Below are positions 9,303 through 24,059 of a stretch of DNA of 26,231 nt, in pieces. A program made the position numbers and the translations under genes. The first letter of the stretch is position 1; every line of letters begins with the position of its first letter. Location: the IMG/VR virus record IMGVR_UViG_3300042731_005304, one strand, 5' to 3'. The notes below the pieces were generated by a model. It had not been told where the DNA came from. It searched no databases and saw only the letters and a list, made by a program, of their open reading frames with translations. This DNA comes from a virus.

Positions 9303-9437
9303 AAGAGGCACAATCGGGCTGGCGTTCAGCTTGCTAAAGCTATCATACGTTCGGTGGAGTAGTATACATCCAGCCACCTAGTCCCTAGCAGAGAATCGAC
9401 CTCACCAGACCAGTCCGTAGTCGTTCAAGTGTGCCTC
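9303..9437 (-). ncRNA. Structured ~135-nt element E2. It lies immediately 3' of the tRNA-Gln/tRNA-Met pair and has the same architecture as E1
   Basis: The 9-nt termini are perfectly complementary (agaggcaca ... tgtgcctct). Internal stems include ggctgg/ccagcc, ggtgg/ccacc and cgac/gtcg. There is no ORF. It sits between tRNA-Met (19 nt away) and the clpP-like start. Confidence 0.35.
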
Positions 9438-9456
9438 TGAATTAAACTATGCATTA

Positions 9457-9530
9457 TTAGCAGGGAAGGGATTCGAACCCTTGATCTTCCGGATATGAGC
9501 CGGCTGCATTAACCAACTGTGCTACCCTGC
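9457..9530 (-). tRNA. tRNA-Met (anticodon CAU). Likely elongator; Ile2/lysidine type not excluded
   Basis: Minus-strand cloverleaf. Acceptor ggcaggg/ccctgct, anticodon loop ctCATat, T-arm aaggg-ttcgaat-ccctt. The features are not initiator-like. Confidence 0.75.
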
Positions 9531-9533
9531 CAT

Positions 9534-9606
9534 ACTTCCCCGTGAGGACTTGAACCTCAAACTACAGATCCAAAGTCTGTCGTGTTACCAATTACACTAC
9601 GGGGAA
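9534..9606 (-). tRNA. tRNA-Gln (anticodon UUG)
   Basis: Minus-strand cloverleaf. Acceptor ttccccg/cggggaa, anticodon stem acaga/tctgt with loop ctTTGga, T-arm tgagg-ttcaagt-cctca. It is 3 nt from tRNA-Met. Confidence 0.75.
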
Positions 9607-9977
9607 TCGCTATTCAATACTTCTTCATCTGTATAGAGTCCAAAATATCTGTTATCTCCTAGTGAGCGAAATCTATCGCTATACTCTAAAGCTCCAACTC
9701 CATCAAACATTGCAAGTAAATCAAACTTGCCACCATACCAATCACCTAGATGTCCTTCATAATATTTACCATCTTTTTGGTCAAGCCCCTCCCAGACATG
9801 ATAAACGAGCTTATCAATAACTTTGTTTACATTCTCTTCTTTACATAAAACCGCAATGACGACATAGCCGTGAGCGGTGCCATCCGCTGCGCCATATCCT
9901 TCGGGATGGTCAGCTCTAGCGAATAGTAAAAGTTTGTTGTTTTTGAGCATGTTTTTAGTAAACTCTTTGCTCATCAA
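9597..9977 (-). CDS. Hypothetical protein, 126 aa
   Basis: ORF whose 3' end overlaps the tRNA-Gln 5' end by ~10 nt. Confidence 0.45.
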   Translation of the reverse strand: MMSKEFTKNMLKNNKLLLFARADHPEGYGAADGTAHGYVVIAVLCKEENVNKVIDKLVYHVWEGLDQKDGKYYEGHLGDWYGGKFDLLAMFDGVGALEYSDRFRSLGDNRYFGLYTDEEVLNSDSP

Positions 9978-10212
9978 GTATTCTCTTTATTTGTCTCTTC
10001 GATACCTTTACTCTAAGAGAAATTCCTTTTATTATACTACAAGCCATCCGAAGCGATTCTTCAGGATTCGTTTTATAATAGTTGATTTTTACTAGCGCAT
10101 GGCTTACATTAACGTAAACTCCTACAACTCTTTCATTAGCTAATAGAGCTTTCTTGAGGGCATTAGCTCTTAAAGCCGTTAAGCCATCAACTATAAAATA
10201 GGCCTCTTTCAT
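9955..10212 (-). CDS. Hypothetical protein, 85 aa
   Basis: ORF that starts right after tRNA-Thr(GGU). Confidence 0.4.
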   Translation of the reverse strand: MKEAYFIVDGLTALRANALKKALLANERVVGVYVNVSHALVKINYYKTNPEESLRMACSIIKGISLRVKVSKRQIKRILDEQRVY

Positions 10213-21615: not shown

Positions 21616-22127
21616 TCTGGCGTCTTCCTCTCTGATGGATTTAGTAATCTAATTGCTGATTCTTCGTTCATCAGACTGAGTAAAATTTCCTTCTCTGTCT
21701 TCTGAGCTATTGGCCTTCTATCTTCTCTAGTATAGAGACCGTACTCATTCAAAAGCCAGCTTTTCTTTTTTGCTACCGAGCGAAGCTTGATGTTGAACCC
21801 CCAAGGGCCTGTATGGTGAAGGAGACCAGCTCCCCAGGATTCTTTCGGTACCCATTTAATATCGACATGCATACCATTAAGTTGGAATCCAACTTTATCA
21901 GAACCAGACCAGTCCATTTCAACATTCAACTTTGAAAGCTCTGAATCTAATTTCTTGCCGAGCGATTTACCAGTCACCAAGATGTCGATATCACCTACAT
22001 CAGCTTTGCCCCTACGATAGGAGCCACAAACTTCATATTTAAGTCCTACAGCATTGAGGGCAGGAATTACTTCCTGGATGACCTTATCAGCTTCTTGTCT
22101 TGTAAATCTTCGTCCGTCTTTAGGCAT
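21576..22127 (-). CDS. Minimal family X DNA polymerase (Pol beta-like palm + thumb only; ASFV Pol X-like), 183 aa
   Basis: VCGSYRRGKADVGDIDILVTGK matches Pol beta [22 protein letters not shown] and ASFV Pol X VAVGSLRREEKMLNDVDLLIIVP. MHVDIKWVP...LLHHTGPWGFNIKLRSVAKKKSWLLNEYGLYTRE matches ASFV YQLDLF...FHFTGPVSYLIRIRAALKKKNYKLNQYGLFKN. C-terminal TEKEILLSL matches ASFV TEKELIKEL. The protein lacks the 8-kDa lyase and fingers domains. Confidence 0.7.
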   Translation of the reverse strand: MPKDGRRFTRQEADKVIQEVIPALNAVGLKYEVCGSYRRGKADVGDIDILVTGKSLGKKLDSELSKLNVEMDWSGSDKVGFQLNGMHVDIKWVPKESWGAGLLHHTGPWGFNIKLRSVAKKKSWLLNEYGLYTREDRRPIAQKTEKEILLSLMNEESAIRLLNPSERKTPEWLEKRGNKSRKK

Positions 22128-22320
22128 GATTAGTTACCAGTACAAAGTTCTCTCTGAACCTTGCAGCGTTTTCATCAATCCATTCAAGGACGATTTCATT
22201 TTCTGTTCGATTATCGCCGAGTGTACGGCATAATGCGATGTAATGGTTTATAGCGTAAGTTTCAGTCTGAATGAATTTTTGGTTGTCTTTAACTTCCGGA
22301 ATCTTAATCTTAGTTTCCAT
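22120..22320 (-). CDS. Hypothetical protein, 66 aa
   Basis: Small minus-strand ORF with no recognisable motif. Confidence 0.35.
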   Translation of the reverse strand: METKIKIPEVKDNQKFIQTETYAINHYIALCRTLGDNRTENEIVLEWIDENAARFRENFVLVTNHA

Positions 22321-22348
22321 AGGTTAATTATAAACGAGACTCGAAGCT

Positions 22349-23281
22349 TTAGAAGATAAGACTAGCTGGGTCGTCCCACTCTGAATAGAGCCTGCAATTC
22401 CTTCTCAGGATGAGATATTTCAAATCCTTCTTGTCGCCCTTCTTGTTCATGCAGTCGAAGTCAACTACTATAGACATGTTGTCCATTGAGTATTTCATGG
22501 CTCCGAACGGGAGCTTGTTAAGCGGACGACCAAACTCTCTTAAATATCTGGCCAAGAACTTCCACCAGTCCGTGTTGTACCTGGTCATTCTGTTCATGCG
22601 AATCCAGCTTGTTACTTCGCCATCTTCGCCAGTAGAATAGAGCTTTCTGAAAGTAATCTGGTCAGCGTTAAACTCTCGACACCGTTGAATAAGGTTTCCA
22701 TAGTGACTGTGCCAAAACTGTTTGTCTTCTGGAAACTCATATTCTTCAAATCCATCTGTGTTCATATTCAGACTGAGTCTGAGGTTAAATCCGTTGCTCT
22801 TGATGTATTCACAGACATCTTTGATAGAAAAGTGAAACCCTTCAGGAGTATTCATTATTTCCAGATTCTTATCGTCATCAAGAGATGACAAAGATAGAGA
22901 AATCGTCTTTACTCCGATTGAATCCATCAGCCACATCCTCTGGTCAGTCAAACCAATGCCTGAAGTTTGAACTTCAATGTTTATAAACCTATCGTTGCCA
23001 AGCGACTTATTAACTTCGTCAAAGAATTTCAAATATTTCTCGTTGAATAGCGGCTCAGAGTATGTGCCGGTAAGAACAAGAGTATCAATATCTTTCTGTC
23101 TCAGATAAAGCAATCGCTCTGTGAAAGCTTGTCGTACCCAATCTTCAATAGCGTCAGTCCCAAACTTAAACACATCATTGAGCATGTCTACTTTGCCCTT
23201 GCGCCAAAGCTCTGAGACACAGAATTTACAATTGTTTGGGCAGCCGCCGGGTACATCTAATGATGCTGATTGTATCTTCAT
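22349..23281 (-). CDS. Radical SAM enzyme, 310 aa. Specific function unknown
   Basis: N-terminal PGGCPNNCKFCVS is the CxxxCxxC [4Fe-4S] motif. VLTGTYSEPL is the Gly-rich SAM-binding (GGE-like) motif. The ATG lies 2 nt after the Thg1-like stop, so the two genes are translationally coupled. Confidence 0.65.
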   Translation of the reverse strand: MKIQSASLDVPGGCPNNCKFCVSELWRKGKVDMLNDVFKFGTDAIEDWVRQAFTERLLYLRQKDIDTLVLTGTYSEPLFNEKYLKFFDEVNKSLGNDRFINIEVQTSGIGLTDQRMWLMDSIGVKTISLSLSSLDDDKNLEIMNTPEGFHFSIKDVCEYIKSNGFNLRLSLNMNTDGFEEYEFPEDKQFWHSHYGNLIQRCREFNADQITFRKLYSTGEDGEVTSWIRMNRMTRYNTDWWKFLARYLREFGRPLNKLPFGAMKYSMDNMSIVVDFDCMNKKGDKKDLKYLILRRNCRLYSEWDDPASLIF

Positions 23282-23282
23282 G

Positions 23283-24059
23283 TTATGCTCCTGCTGTTGC
23301 TGGTCCTACACATTCCTGGACCAAGTTACCAACTATCCACCTTTCTTTTGTGAAGATGATATTTGGAACTGCGTCCCAGTTGCTACGAATCCTTTCGCTT
23401 TCTCCACCATCGCTTGTATCGAATACTTCTCTTATAAGAGTTACACCGTTCTTCCACTTGTCATCAAGATCTGCCCAGTTAACTCCCTTCTCGTAGAGCA
23501 TCTCATGCATATCTGAACGGTTTTTACCATGAAGCTCTTTATGAGAATAGTATTCTCGTGCTAACATCTGCACACTGTTTTTCGTCCAATCCTGCTGACG
23601 CCAGACAAAATAGTTGTTGGCGTCTTCTCTTGGAATATTGAAGACTCTAGAATCGAATATGCCATACAAATCATTCTCTGTATGTACATGCCTCATCAAA
23701 GACGTAAAGAAAGAAGAAGCAATTCCTGATGAGACAGACGTCATCTTTTGAATGTTGTAGTCGAACCACGACTCGGTGTTCAATGTGTCGTAGTCCACTA
23801 AAAGAATTGAAATCTCATCGCTCTGAACGTAAGCTAGCTTAGCGCCTTGTATCTCTTCACAGAGTCGTCTTGCTGTTTCTTCCATCCATATTGCGAAATC
23901 TTCATCGAACGGTCTGTTCAAGTGAAGACGCTTTGTAAGCGTATGAAATGCCTTGCCATCAATCCTCATGACGACTGGCATTCTACGAGCTAGAGATGTT
24001 TGAGAGCGGAATTCGTAGTATTCTTTCATCCGCTCGCCTAAAGTTCTTTTATGATGCAT
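23283..24059 (-). CDS. Thg1-like protein (tRNA-His guanylyltransferase family, 3'-5' nucleotidyltransferase)
   Basis: VVMRIDGKAFHTLTKRLHLNRPFDEDFAIWMEETARRLCEEIQGAKLAYVQSDEISILL matches Thg1 [59 protein letters not shown], including the metal-binding Asp and the SDE motif. DSRVFNIPREDANNYFVWRQQD matches [23 protein letters not shown]. Confidence 0.65.
   Translation of the reverse strand: MHHKRTLGERMKEYYEFRSQTSLARRMPVVMRIDGKAFHTLTKRLHLNRPFDEDFAIWMEETARRLCEEIQGAKLAYVQSDEISILLVDYDTLNTESWFDYNIQKMTSVSSGIASSFFTSLMRHVHTENDLYGIFDSRVFNIPREDANNYFVWRQQDWTKNSVQMLAREYYSHKELHGKNRSDMHEMLYEKGVNWADLDDKWKNGVTLIREVFDTSDGGESERIRSNWDAVPNIIFTKERWIVGNLVQECVGPATAGA

What the first reader, a model, noticed from the sequence alone, without database searches (positions are those of the whole stretch)
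9303..24059. Integrated hypothesis: a phage translation-maintenance and anti-tRNase island
The window combines 12 tRNAs, two tRNA-cluster-associated structured RNAs, tmRNA, an ArfB-like hydrolase, a ClpP-family protease, a Thg1-like tRNA 5'-end polymerase with a radical-SAM partner and a cysteine desulfurase (the sulfur donor for tRNA thiolation). Taken together they look like a system that keeps translation running when the host attacks tRNAs, mRNAs or ribosomes. Such attacks include anticodon nucleases, tRNA 5'/acceptor-end cleaving toxins, mRNA interferases and NAD depletion. No single component is unprecedented. I am not aware of the combination, especially Thg1-like+rSAM with tmRNA+ArfB, having been described as a unit.
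Basis: inference. Interest (0 to 1): 0.7.

Follow-up and report, generated by a model that had tools for sequence, protein, structure and literature searches.

The report
Mosaic phage tRNA and accessory-gene region
This stretch of a large uncultured phage really does carry tRNAs, a tmRNA and a few tRNA- and ribosome-related enzymes, but they form a loose, reshuffled collection mixed with DNA-metabolism genes of a kind already described for big phages, not a new coordinated system.

Summary
Most listed components exist, but several labels and the claim of a unit do not hold.

**Found:**
- 10 tRNAs in the window, not 12; 7 lie in the stated range.
- One tmRNA.
- A full-length bacterial-type Thg1-like protein.
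- A radical-SAM protein.
- A NifS/IscS-type cysteine desulfurase.
- A ClpP-family protease, just outside the coordinates.
- Two conserved, unclassified small RNAs directly 3' of tRNA genes.

**Labels that fail:**
- The "ArfB-like" protein is a 111-aa GGQ domain. It sits closer to RF1/RF2 domain 3 and has an acidic rather than basic tail.
- The radical-SAM fold is nearest MoaA and viperin, not tRNA modifiers.

**The unit fails:**
- Thg1 and the radical-SAM gene are adjacent only in the closest relatives. All four presence/absence combinations occur in sister phages.
- No pairing appears around 43 Thg1 loci or 80 radical-SAM loci.
- The genes are interleaved with ribonucleotide reductase, a nucleotidase, HNH, mini-PolX and ligase genes, with terminator-like hairpins between them.

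**Real associations:**
- Thg1-like genes lie near tRNA genes in many phages.
- The closest GGQ homologues often sit inside tRNA arrays.

**Novelty:** the concept is already published (Iyer 2021; Morgado & Vicente 2018; Al-Shayeb 2020).

The parts
9303..9440 (-). Conserved, unclassified structured RNA ('sRNA_a') directly 3' of tRNA-Met. A 9-bp closing stem (GAGGCACA.../...UGUGCCUC) encloses a core GAACGACUA...GGUGAGGUCGAUUC.
   Evidence: Fold z=-1.9. Homologues in L132 (after tRNA-Glu) and L216 (230 nt after tRNA-His); in L216 the closing stem has a different sequence but still pairs. No Rfam match.
9457..9606 (-). tRNA-Met(CAU) 9457-9532 and tRNA-Gln(UUG) 9535-9606
   Evidence: ARAGORN; Rfam tRNA 62 and 67 bits.
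10214..10285 (-). tRNA-Thr(GGU)
   Evidence: The order Endonuclease_NS, tRNA-Thr(GGU), tRNA-Gln is shared with L132.
10416..11174 (-). DNA/RNA non-specific endonuclease (Endonuclease_NS). Not a translation factor.
   Evidence: Pfam PF01223, 188.7 bits.
11183..11518 (-). Stand-alone GGQ (RF-1 domain) protein of 111 aa with a conserved acidic C-terminal motif (family consensus V[DE]xAMxxENLKIEY). Probably a peptidyl-tRNA hydrolase. It starts 1 nt after tRNA-Thr(CGU).
   Evidence: Pfam RF-1 58.9 bits. NCBIfam: RF2 48, RF1 44, PrfH 38, ArfB 27 bits. Family alignment A2. Tail charge. AF2 pLDDT 86, with Foldseek best hits RF1/RF2 domain 3.
11520..11593 (-). tRNA-Thr(CGU)
12038..12267 (-). tRNA-Asp(GUC) x2 (12038-12113, 12117-12191) and tRNA-Thr(UGU) 12194-12267
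13433..14752 (-). NifS/IscS-type (group I) cysteine desulfurase
   Evidence: Pfam Aminotran_5 185 bits. NCBIfam NifS 312, DndA 253, IscS 249 bits, all below equivalog cut-offs. PDB 1ECX 244 bits, with the PLP lysine and catalytic cysteine loop conserved. 61% homologue at the syntenic position in L051.
14816..14833 (-). Terminator-like GC hairpin between HNH and NifS. It separates transcription units.
14837..15466 (-). HNH endonuclease (homing-type)
   Evidence: Pfam HNH_5 62.7 bits. 73% homologue in L051.
16603..18906 (-). Class II-like ribonucleotide reductase
   Evidence: Pfam Ribonuc_red_lgC 373 bits. Phage homologues annotated as class II RNR.
19077..19343 (-). tmRNA, tag GEEQFLMAA, immediately upstream of the RNR gene and followed by a strong hairpin
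   Evidence: tmRNA-RNR adjacency is conserved in L050 (tag GEYQLAA) and L051 (tag GENQFLMAA). Downstream hairpin z=-4.3.
19904..20470 (-). NT5C-type 5'(3')-deoxyribonucleotidase
   Evidence: Pfam NT5C 99.4 bits.
21576..22127 (-). Minimal PolX-family polymerase (palm + thumb, 183 aa)
   Evidence: Pfam DNA_pol_B_thumb and DNA_pol_B_palm; NCBIfam PolX region 164-301. Absent at this position in L051 and L217.
22349..23281 (-). Radical-SAM enzyme of a large family from uncultured phages (>1000 members). MoaA/viperin-like fold; substrate unknown.
   Evidence: AF2 pLDDT 89. Foldseek MoaA TM 0.63, viperins about 0.6. Neighbourhood analysis.
23283..24059 (-). Bacterial-type Thg1-like protein (TLP), a 3'-5' nucleotidyltransferase
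   Evidence: Pfam Thg1 104.6 bits. PHROG 4717. 4KGK E=5.6e-56 over the full length, with the RIDG and SDE carboxylate motifs conserved.
8658..9278 (-). ClpP-family serine protease (outside the finding's coordinates)
   Evidence: Pfam CLP_protease 93.9 bits. NCBIfam head-maturation protease 109 bits (cut-off 120); ClpP models up to 72 bits (cut-off 228 or more). Triad aligned.
8044..8694 (-). Nicotinamidase PncA (NAD salvage; outside the coordinates)
   Evidence: NCBIfam NF008623, 179.9 bits against a cut-off of 174.
24531..25871 (-). ATP-dependent DNA ligase (outside the coordinates). Used as the synteny anchor for the relatives.
   Evidence: Pfam. Relatives at 57-79% identity.
10..150 (-). 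Second conserved structured RNA candidate ('sRNA_b'), directly 3' of tRNA-Glu(UUC) 160-235
   Evidence: 11-bp closing stem, z=-2.7. 73% match at the same position after tRNA-Glu(UUC) in L132. No Rfam match.

Best explanation
The interval is part of the hyperplastic accessory-gene arm of a large uncultured tailed phage. Contigs that share syntenic genes with it are 144-278 kb long.

**What the region holds.** Several kinds of gene are interleaved on one strand:
- fragments of a dispersed tRNA array, a tmRNA and small conserved RNAs;
- a homing endonuclease;
- nucleotide-metabolism genes (RNR, NT5C, ThyA-like);
- NAD salvage (PncA);
- DNA-repair genes (ligase, mini-PolX, a non-specific nuclease);
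- a few RNA and ribosome enzymes.

These are gained, lost and shuffled individually between sister phages. Terminator-like hairpins divide the interval into at least three putative transcription units.

**Inferred roles, from family knowledge.**
- The tRNAs supplement or replace host tRNAs.
- The tmRNA, working with host SmpB, rescues non-stop ribosomes.
- The 111-aa GGQ protein hydrolyses peptidyl-tRNA on stalled ribosomes or split large subunits. It would use a recognition mode different from ArfB.
- The Thg1-like protein rebuilds damaged or immature tRNA 5' ends by templated 3'-5' addition.
- The desulfurase most simply supplies sulfur for Fe-S clusters, for example that of the radical-SAM enzyme.

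Together they make a loose translation-support and counter-defence gene set of the kind already described for jumbo phages. They are not a co-inherited, co-regulated system.
For: **Shown here**
- Component identities.
- Interleaving with unrelated functions.
- Terminator-like hairpins after HNH, at 12493-12472 and after the tmRNA.
- 24 of 38 adjacent gene pairs have gaps of 10 nt or less, so the 1-nt Thg1/radical-SAM spacing is not distinctive.
- Mosaic synteny in the relatives:
  - L217 and L051 keep both Thg1 and the radical-SAM gene.
  - L050 and L250 keep the radical-SAM gene without Thg1.
  - L004 has Thg1 locally, with its radical-SAM gene about 85 kb away.
  - L218, L220 and L222 have neither.
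  - PolX is present only in the window.
  - An RNA ligase or RtcB takes a place in L050 and L220.
- Broad sampling: 0 of 43 and 0 of 80 cross-occurrences within 10 kb.
- Only 2 GenBank phage records hold the radical-SAM family, against 162 that hold Thg1.
- tmRNA-RNR adjacency is kept in 3 of 3 relatives.

**Literature for the general model:** PMC7824862 section 3.4.9, PMC5966550, PMC7162821, PMC5259590.
Against: - Thg1 and the radical-SAM gene are immediately adjacent in the window and in L217, and near each other in L051. A lineage-specific functional pairing therefore cannot be excluded, and N=9 relatives gives no statistical power.
- Most relatives are short contigs, so 'absent' means absent from the syntenic place, not from the genome.
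- Thg1-like genes and the closest GGQ homologues do cluster with tRNA genes, which argues for some functional grouping rather than pure chance.
- No expression or biochemical data exist for any of these proteins.
Confidence: 0.7

Rival explanations
1. One reading: the genes form a coordinated anti-tRNase and translation-maintenance island. Its parts would work together against anticodon nucleases, acceptor-end nucleases, mRNA interferases and NAD depletion.
For: - tRNAs, tmRNA, the Thg1-like protein, the GGQ protein and PncA all lie within 26 kb.
- Thg1-like genes are enriched next to tRNAs.
- Radical-SAM family neighbourhoods are enriched in NAD-salvage genes, RtcB, PTH2 and Macro: 38 of 80 loci against 10 of 43, p=0.011.
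- Phage tRNAs are known to evade tRNA-targeting defences (PMC10264068, PMC11555353).
Against: - The genes are distributed independently in sister phages and in broad samples.
- They are interleaved with unrelated genes and separated by terminator-like hairpins.
- The window holds no RNA ligase, CCA-adding enzyme, Pth or thiouridylase.
- The ArfB, ClpP and radical-SAM-partner assignments do not hold.
Confidence: 0.15
2. A translation-capacity (codon-supply) explanation. The tRNAs, and with them the tmRNA and the GGQ hydrolase, would serve to sustain high-rate translation of phage mRNAs late in infection, when host RNA turns over. They would not serve to counter specific immune nucleases.
For: - Complete isoacceptor sets are present: three tRNA-Thr, two tRNA-Gln, and tRNA-Ile(UAU), which avoids the need for TilS.
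- Relatives carry 19-23 tRNAs per 20 kb.
- Codon compensation is the classical view (PMC10264068 introduction; PMC3601020).
- Morgado & Vicente propose that extra rescue factors accompany extra tRNAs (PMC5966550).
Against: - The host is unknown, so codon usage could not be compared.
- This reading does not explain the Thg1-like 5'-end repair enzyme, nor the RNA ligases found in the relatives.
Confidence: 0.3
3. Thg1-like protein plus radical-SAM enzyme as a lineage-specific two-gene cassette with a joint function on tRNA or on nucleotides.
For: - A 1-nt gap in the window.
- The same adjacency in L217 (Thg1 67%, radical SAM 56% identity), and two small ORFs between them in L051.
- L218, an equally close relative, lacks both genes at that place.
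Against: - L050 and L250 keep the radical-SAM gene without Thg1. L004 keeps Thg1 with its radical-SAM gene about 85 kb away.
- 0 of 43 and 0 of 80 across the two families.
- 162 isolate phages have Thg1 without this radical-SAM gene.
- Tight gene spacing is the norm in this window.
Confidence: 0.1

Closest known systems
RNA-repair, tRNA-provisioning and ribosome-rescue gene sets of jumbo phages (Iyer, Anantharaman, Krishnan, Burroughs & Aravind 2021, PMC7824862, section 3.4.9)
   Same: Phage tRNA arrays are supplemented by Thg1 and peptidyl-tRNA hydrolases, with NAD-salvage genes nearby. The paper interprets them as a counter to host attacks on the translation apparatus. The distribution is sporadic and patchy.
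   Different: The window lacks the RNA ligases, the CCA-adding enzyme and PTH2 listed there. It has instead a GGQ-only protein and a tmRNA. The radical-SAM family and the cysteine desulfurase are not part of that description.
tRNA array units of mycobacteria, mycobacteriophages and plasmids (Morgado & Vicente 2018, PMC5966550) and cluster C1 mycobacteriophages
   Same: - tRNA arrays carrying a tmRNA, a structured RNA, HNH endonucleases and RF-1-domain or Pth genes.
[quoted passage not shown]
   Different: - Different phage lineage, and the host here is unknown.
- In phage Cali the RF-1 gene sits in the replication module, not in the array.
- The structured RNA here is about 135 nt, not about 430 nt, and is not shown to be related.
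- The C1 announcement papers and the Cali region inspected do not mention a Thg1-like gene. The Mycobacterium phage Thg1-like hits listed are in 108-112-kb genomes, not C1-sized ones (about 151-161 kb).
Bacillus thuringiensis Thg1-like protein (PDB 4KGK) and phage 'tRNA-His guanylyltransferase' genes (PHROG 4717)
   Same: Full-length homology (E=5.6e-56) with the catalytic carboxylate motifs conserved. 162 GenBank phage records carry homologues.
   Different: At most 47% identity to any isolate phage protein. In this window the gene is 11 kb from the nearest tRNA, whereas 14 of 43 metagenomic homologues lie within 500 nt of one.
ArfB (YaeJ) / ICT1 / mtRF-R (C12orf65) stand-alone GGQ rescue factors
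   Same: A stand-alone GGQ peptidyl-tRNA hydrolase domain without codon-recognition domains. The expected chemistry is the same.
   Different: - No positively charged C-terminal tail: net charge -2, family median -2.
- The ArfB model scores 27 bits against a cut-off of 100.
- ArfB structures rank 40th and 47th in the fold search, behind RF1/RF2 domain 3.

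Membership tests
ArfB (alternative ribosome-rescue factor B) | GGQ catalytic motif in a stand-alone RF-PH domain, with no codon-recognition or GTPase-interaction domains | tested here: met
   The protein is 111 aa with GAGGQ at residues 22-26. Pfam RF-1 covers residues 6-68. The GG is invariant and the Q is conserved in at least 90% of the 27-member alignment.
ArfB (alternative ribosome-rescue factor B) | Linker plus a positively charged C-terminal helix that probes the empty mRNA channel (definition in PMC6514570) | tested here: not met
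   The tail after W74 has net charge -2. The family median is -2 (range -5 to +3), with a conserved acidic ENLKIEY end. E. coli ArfB's last 40 residues are about +13 (sequence recalled from memory).
ArfB (alternative ribosome-rescue factor B) | Scores above the curated ArfB equivalog model (NF006718, cut-off 100 bits) | tested here: not met
   27.2 bits, covering residues 7-32 only. RF2 (48), RF1 (44) and PrfH (38) score higher. Foldseek ranks the ArfB complexes 6YSS and 4V95 at positions 40 and 47.
Thg1 / Thg1-like protein (TLP) 3'-5' nucleotidyltransferases | Thg1 catalytic domain above the Pfam gathering score, with the metal-binding carboxylates | tested here: met
   PF04446, 104.6 bits against 29.2. 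The RIDG and SDEIS motifs align with 4KGK.
Thg1 / Thg1-like protein (TLP) 3'-5' nucleotidyltransferases | Bacterial TLP subtype (templated 5'-end repair) rather than eukaryotic tRNA-His G-1 addition | tested here: inconclusive
   - The match to the bacterial TLP 4KGK (193 bits) is far better than to eukaryotic Thg1 (44-48 bits).
- Phage homologues neighbour tRNA-Pro, Met and Leu rather than His.
- Activity is not testable here.
tmRNA (SsrA) | tRNA-like domain plus tag reading frame; Rfam RF00023 above its gathering score | tested here: met
   73.4 bits against 47, model positions 1-374. ARAGORN tag GEEQFLMAA*. Homologues with related tags in L050 and L051.
tmRNA (SsrA) | A cognate SmpB partner encoded alongside | tested here: not met
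   No SmpB domain in any of the 40 window ORFs scanned against Pfam. It may come from the host or lie elsewhere in the genome.
ATP-dependent ClpP (the protease that degrades ssrA-tagged proteins) | ClpP fold with a Ser-His-Asp triad | tested here: met
   PF00574, 93.9 bits. The triad aligns with S. aureus ClpP.
ATP-dependent ClpP (the protease that degrades ssrA-tagged proteins) | Reaches a curated ClpP equivalog or subfamily cut-off | tested here: not met
   The best ClpP models score 72 bits against cut-offs of 228-249. The top hit is 'head maturation protease, ClpP-related' at 109 bits (cut-off 120).
Cysteine desulfurase acting as sulfur donor for tRNA thiolation | Group I NifS/IscS enzyme with the PLP lysine and the catalytic cysteine loop | tested here: met
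   1ECX 244 bits, with HK and SSSACTS conserved. It is below the NifS and IscS equivalog cut-offs.
Cysteine desulfurase acting as sulfur donor for tRNA thiolation | A partner thiouridylase or sulfur relay (MnmA, ThiI, TtcA, TtuA, TusA) in the neighbourhood | tested here: not met
   - No such domain in the 40 window ORFs scanned.
- In L051 the next larger gene downstream of NifS, after a 47-aa ORF, is a second radical-SAM enzyme. That fits Fe-S supply better.
tRNA-modifying radical-SAM enzymes (MiaB, RlmN/Cfr, TYW1, QueE) | Sequence or fold membership in one of these families | tested here: not met
   - Only weak NCBIfam hits (27.5 bits or less) to W-cofactor maturase, MoaA and HemW.
- The nearest Foldseek hits are MoaA, viperins and SuiB/SkfB.
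- CxxxCxxC is present.
Phage RNA-repair / ribosome-rescue counter-defence set (PMC7824862) | tRNA array together with RNA ligase(s), end-healing enzymes, a CCA-adding enzyme, Thg1 and PTH2 | tested here: inconclusive
   - tRNAs and Thg1 are present.
- No RNA ligase, CCA-adding enzyme or PTH2 in the window.
- Relatives carry an Rnl2-like ligase (L050, L133) or RtcB (L220).

The most novel reading that the evidence does not exclude
Two elements here could be new in their own right.

1. **The GGQ-only protein family.** It runs 107-138 aa (mostly 107-127) and has a conserved acidic ENLKIEY C-terminus. It is common in large phages and is often wedged between tRNA genes. It may be a distinct class of phage ribosome-rescue or peptidyl-tRNA-release factor that recognises stalled complexes differently from ArfB, ICT1 or mtRF-R.
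2. **The ~135-nt RNA.** It has the core GAACGACUA...GGUGAGGUCGAUUC and sits directly 3' of tRNA genes. It may be a new phage tRNA-array-associated RNA family.

Separately, the MoaA/viperin-like radical-SAM family recurs next to NAD-salvage, RtcB, PTH2 and Macro genes. It could be an uncharacterised counter-defence enzyme.
Probability: 0.3. Interest if true: 0.55.

Novelty: new member of a known kind. Interest (0 to 1): 0.3.

Why it matters
The result corrects an attractive over-interpretation. The analysis also gives three concrete, testable leads:
- a widespread GGQ-only protein family distinct from ArfB;
- a conserved small RNA 3' of phage tRNA genes;
- a large radical-SAM family that recurs beside NAD-salvage and RNA-repair genes.

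Tried and rejected
- **DNA-level relatives.** Megablast of the interval against GenBank phages gave no match, so no close relative is deposited.
- **Source contig.** An exact-sequence look-up of the radical-SAM protein found no record, so the source contig was not recovered.
- **Ligase scans.** A single-sequence ligase scan of IMG/VR found nothing. The alignment-based scan of metagenome contigs worked.
- **Host inference.** The ligase alignment found nothing in genome contigs. The GGQ alignment gave only MAG contigs from many phyla at 52% identity or less over the full length, probably mis-binned phage DNA. The host remains unknown.
- **The '580-nt gap' at 20471-21050.** I first treated it as a possible ncRNA. 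It is filled by a plus-strand ORF (20531-21064) with an AGGAG ribosome-binding site, and L051 has an equivalent opposite-strand ORF.
- **DNA hypermodification.** I considered that NifS, the radical-SAM enzyme and the two ThyA-like proteins might form a thymidine-hypermodification pathway. I set this aside because the PLP enzyme has the full cysteine-desulfurase active site and the genes are dispersed. It is not excluded.
- **Rfam.** Searches with lax filters on the candidate RNAs gave only chance-level hits.
- **Literature.** Nothing was found that links radical SAM, RtcB and NAD in phages. PMC5062991 (Burroughs & Aravind 2016) is not held.

Full report
**What is in the window.** The window is 26,231 nt at 40.9% GC. 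All credible genes but one lie on the minus strand.
- ARAGORN and Rfam agree on 10 tRNAs: Glu-UUC, Ile-UAU, Gln-CUG, Met, Gln-UUG, Thr-GGU, Thr-CGU, two Asp-GUC and Thr-UGU.
- They also agree on one tmRNA, at 19077-19343, with tag GEEQFLMAA.
- A permissive Rfam search adds no further tRNA.

**Protein annotation**, in direction of transcription:
- DNA ligase
- Thg1-like protein
- radical-SAM enzyme
- mini-PolX
- one plus-strand ORF
- NT5C nucleotidase
- tmRNA
- class II-like RNR
- HNH endonuclease
- NifS-type desulfurase
- tRNAs
- GGQ protein
- Endonuclease_NS
- tRNAs
- ClpP-like protease
- PncA
- DHH phosphoesterase
- two ThyA-like proteins
- a major-vault-protein-like protein
- tRNAs

The translation-related genes are therefore interleaved with nucleotide-metabolism, NAD and DNA-repair genes.

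**Component checks**
- *Thg1-like protein.* It is a full-length homologue of the B. thuringiensis Thg1-like protein (4KGK, E=5.6e-56), with the catalytic motifs conserved. Homologues are annotated in 162 GenBank phage records, including many jumbo phages.
- *'ArfB-like' protein.* It is a 111-aa GGQ domain. It scores higher on RF2, RF1 and PrfH models than on ArfB (27 bits, cut-off 100).
  - It belongs to a tight family of mostly 107-127-aa proteins with a conserved acidic C-terminus (V[DE]xAMxxENLKIEY).
  - Tail net charge has a median of -2, against about +13 for ArfB.
  - Its AlphaFold model (pLDDT 86) matches RF1/RF2 domain 3 first and ArfB only at ranks 40 and 47.
- *ClpP-family protein.* It has an aligned Ser-His-Asp triad. 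It scores best on the phage 'head maturation protease, ClpP-related' model and far below the ClpP cut-offs. It lies outside the stated coordinates.
- *Desulfurase.* It has the PLP lysine and the SSSACTS cysteine loop. No thiouridylase is present in the window, and in relative L051 a second radical-SAM gene follows it after a 47-aa ORF.
- *Radical-SAM enzyme.* It belongs to a family of more than 1000 proteins from large uncultured contigs. Its model (pLDDT 89) is nearest MoaA and viperins, not tRNA-modifying enzymes.

*Broad sampling*
- None of 43 Thg1-like loci in IMG/VR has the radical-SAM gene within 10 kb.
- None of 80 radical-SAM loci has Thg1.
- The three contig lists (Thg1, radical SAM, GGQ) share a single contig, on which Thg1 and the radical-SAM gene are about 85 kb apart.
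- Only two GenBank phage records hold the radical-SAM family.

*Close relatives, anchored on the ligase*
- L217 and L051 have both genes.
- L050 and L250 have the radical-SAM gene only.
- L004 has Thg1 only at that locus.
- L218, L220 and L222 have neither.
- Counting the window, that is 3, 2, 1 and 3 cases (Fisher p=0.52).
- PolX, NT5C, RNA ligase and RtcB also come and go.

*Within the window*
- The only invariant adjacency is tmRNA-RNR (3 of 3 relatives).
- Terminator-like hairpins follow HNH, lie at 12493-12472 and follow the tmRNA.
- 24 of 38 gene pairs are spaced by 10 nt or less, so the 1-nt Thg1/radical-SAM spacing is not special.

**What does associate**
- Thg1-like genes lie within 500 nt of a tRNA in 14 of 43 loci, against 2 of 80 for the radical-SAM loci (p=5e-6, uncorrected for relatedness). 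The neighbouring tRNAs are mostly Pro, Met and Leu, not His.
- Several of the closest GGQ homologues from assemblies (68-71% identity) sit inside dense tRNA arrays. In L135 the gene is flanked by tRNA-Asp and tRNA-Ile with no spacer.
- In the wider IMG/VR sample the GGQ enrichment is not significant (7 of 80).
- The radical-SAM family recurs beside NadE, PncB, PncA, RtcB, PTH2 and Macro genes: 38 of 80 loci against 10 of 43 (p=0.011).

**Structured RNAs.** Two elements lie directly 3' of tRNA genes: 9303-9440 and about 10-150, both on the minus strand.
- Each has a long closing stem and a modest folding z-score.
- Neither matches Rfam.
- Both are conserved after tRNA-Glu genes in L132.
- The first has a third homologue, L216, with a closing stem that differs in sequence but still pairs, and two compensatory pairs in an inner hairpin.
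- They look real, but three sequences are too few for a firm structure.

**Prior knowledge**
- Iyer et al. 2021 (PMC7824862) describe tRNA provisioning together with RNA ligases, CCA-adding enzyme, Thg1 and PTH2, and NAD salvage, as jumbo-phage counter-measures to attacks on translation.
- Morgado & Vicente 2018 (PMC5966550) report tRNA arrays carrying tmRNA, a structured RNA, HNH, RF-1 and Pth.
- Al-Shayeb et al. 2020 (PMC7162821) report tmRNA, SmpB and release factors in huge phages.
- Cluster C1 mycobacteriophages combine about 30 tRNAs, a tmRNA and a homologous 'RF-1' mini-protein.
- The general idea and most pairings are therefore published. What is specific here is the particular mix of genes in one uncultured lineage.

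**Verdict.** The region is a mosaic accessory arm holding a loose translation-support gene set, and is a new member of a known kind.

Noticed in passing
window 694-3375 (-): An 893-aa protein with major-vault-protein shoulder, SPFH/Band-7 and vault-repeat domains. It matches rat/human MVP structures at E=1.4e-15 over residues 497-843. This is an unusual protein for a phage.
   Followed up: partly
window 3615-4433 and 4442-5335 (-): Two adjacent, very divergent thymidylate-synthase-like paralogues. Their best match is the archaeal-type model TIGR03283, below its cut-off. They could be dUMP/dCMP hydroxymethylase-type enzymes for modified DNA bases.
   Followed up: no
window 21576-22127 (-), with ligase 24531-25871 (-): A 183-aa minimal PolX (palm + thumb only) lies 2.4 kb from an ATP-dependent DNA ligase. 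The pairing is reminiscent of a minimal base-excision-repair set. PolX is absent from the syntenic place in L051 and L217.
   Followed up: partly
window 9303-9440 (-), 10-150 (-), 368-693 (-); L132 19733-19850, 7195-7372, 5977-6209; L216 1955-2095 (-): Conserved non-coding elements flank tRNA genes, and none matches Rfam.
- The first has the core GAACGACUA-N9-12-GGUGAGGUCGAUUC inside a closing stem that differs in sequence between homologues but still pairs.
- The 326-nt stretch upstream of tRNA-Ile folds strongly (z=-5.3) and is partly conserved in L132.
   Followed up: partly
loci L044-L131 (radical-SAM family), e.g. L071, L113, L119, L112, L090, L079: The MoaA/viperin-like radical-SAM family recurs within about 6 kb of NAD synthetase, nicotinate phosphoribosyltransferase, nicotinamidase, RtcB, PTH2 and Macro-domain genes. 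At least one of these is present in 38 of 80 loci. No paper linking them was found.
   Followed up: partly
window 294-367 (-): tRNA-Ile with a UAU anticodon. This would read AUA without the host lysidine synthetase TilS. L135 and L136 carry the same tRNA.
   Followed up: no
window 19077-19343 / 16603-18906; L050 10431-10680; L051 7703-7949: The tmRNA gene sits immediately upstream of the ribonucleotide reductase gene in all three related contigs. The tags are related (GEEQFLMAA, GENQFLMAA, GEYQLAA). In L050 the RNR gene carries inteins.
   Followed up: partly
L132 18313-18387; also L193, L208, L029: Amber-suppressor-type tRNAs (anticodon CUA, called 'tRNA-Pyl' or 'tRNA-Stop' by ARAGORN) occur in several relatives, in L132, L193 and L208 within 10 kb of the GGQ gene and in L029 near the Thg1-like gene. 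This hints at stop-codon reassignment in some of these phages.
   Followed up: no
window 20531-21064 (+): The only plus-strand gene in the window: 177 aa, with an AGGAG ribosome-binding site and no family match. An opposite-strand ORF of similar size (174 aa) sits at the same place in L051 and L052; their homology was not tested.
   Followed up: partly
L232-L237, L249 (ligase at 42-44% identity) and L008: A ClpP-like gene (43-47% identical to the window's) lies directly downstream of the ligase in a more distant group of marine contigs. In L008 a 63%-identical ClpP-like gene lies 1 kb upstream of a Thg1-like gene. The ClpP-like gene therefore also moves around this accessory region.
   Followed up: no
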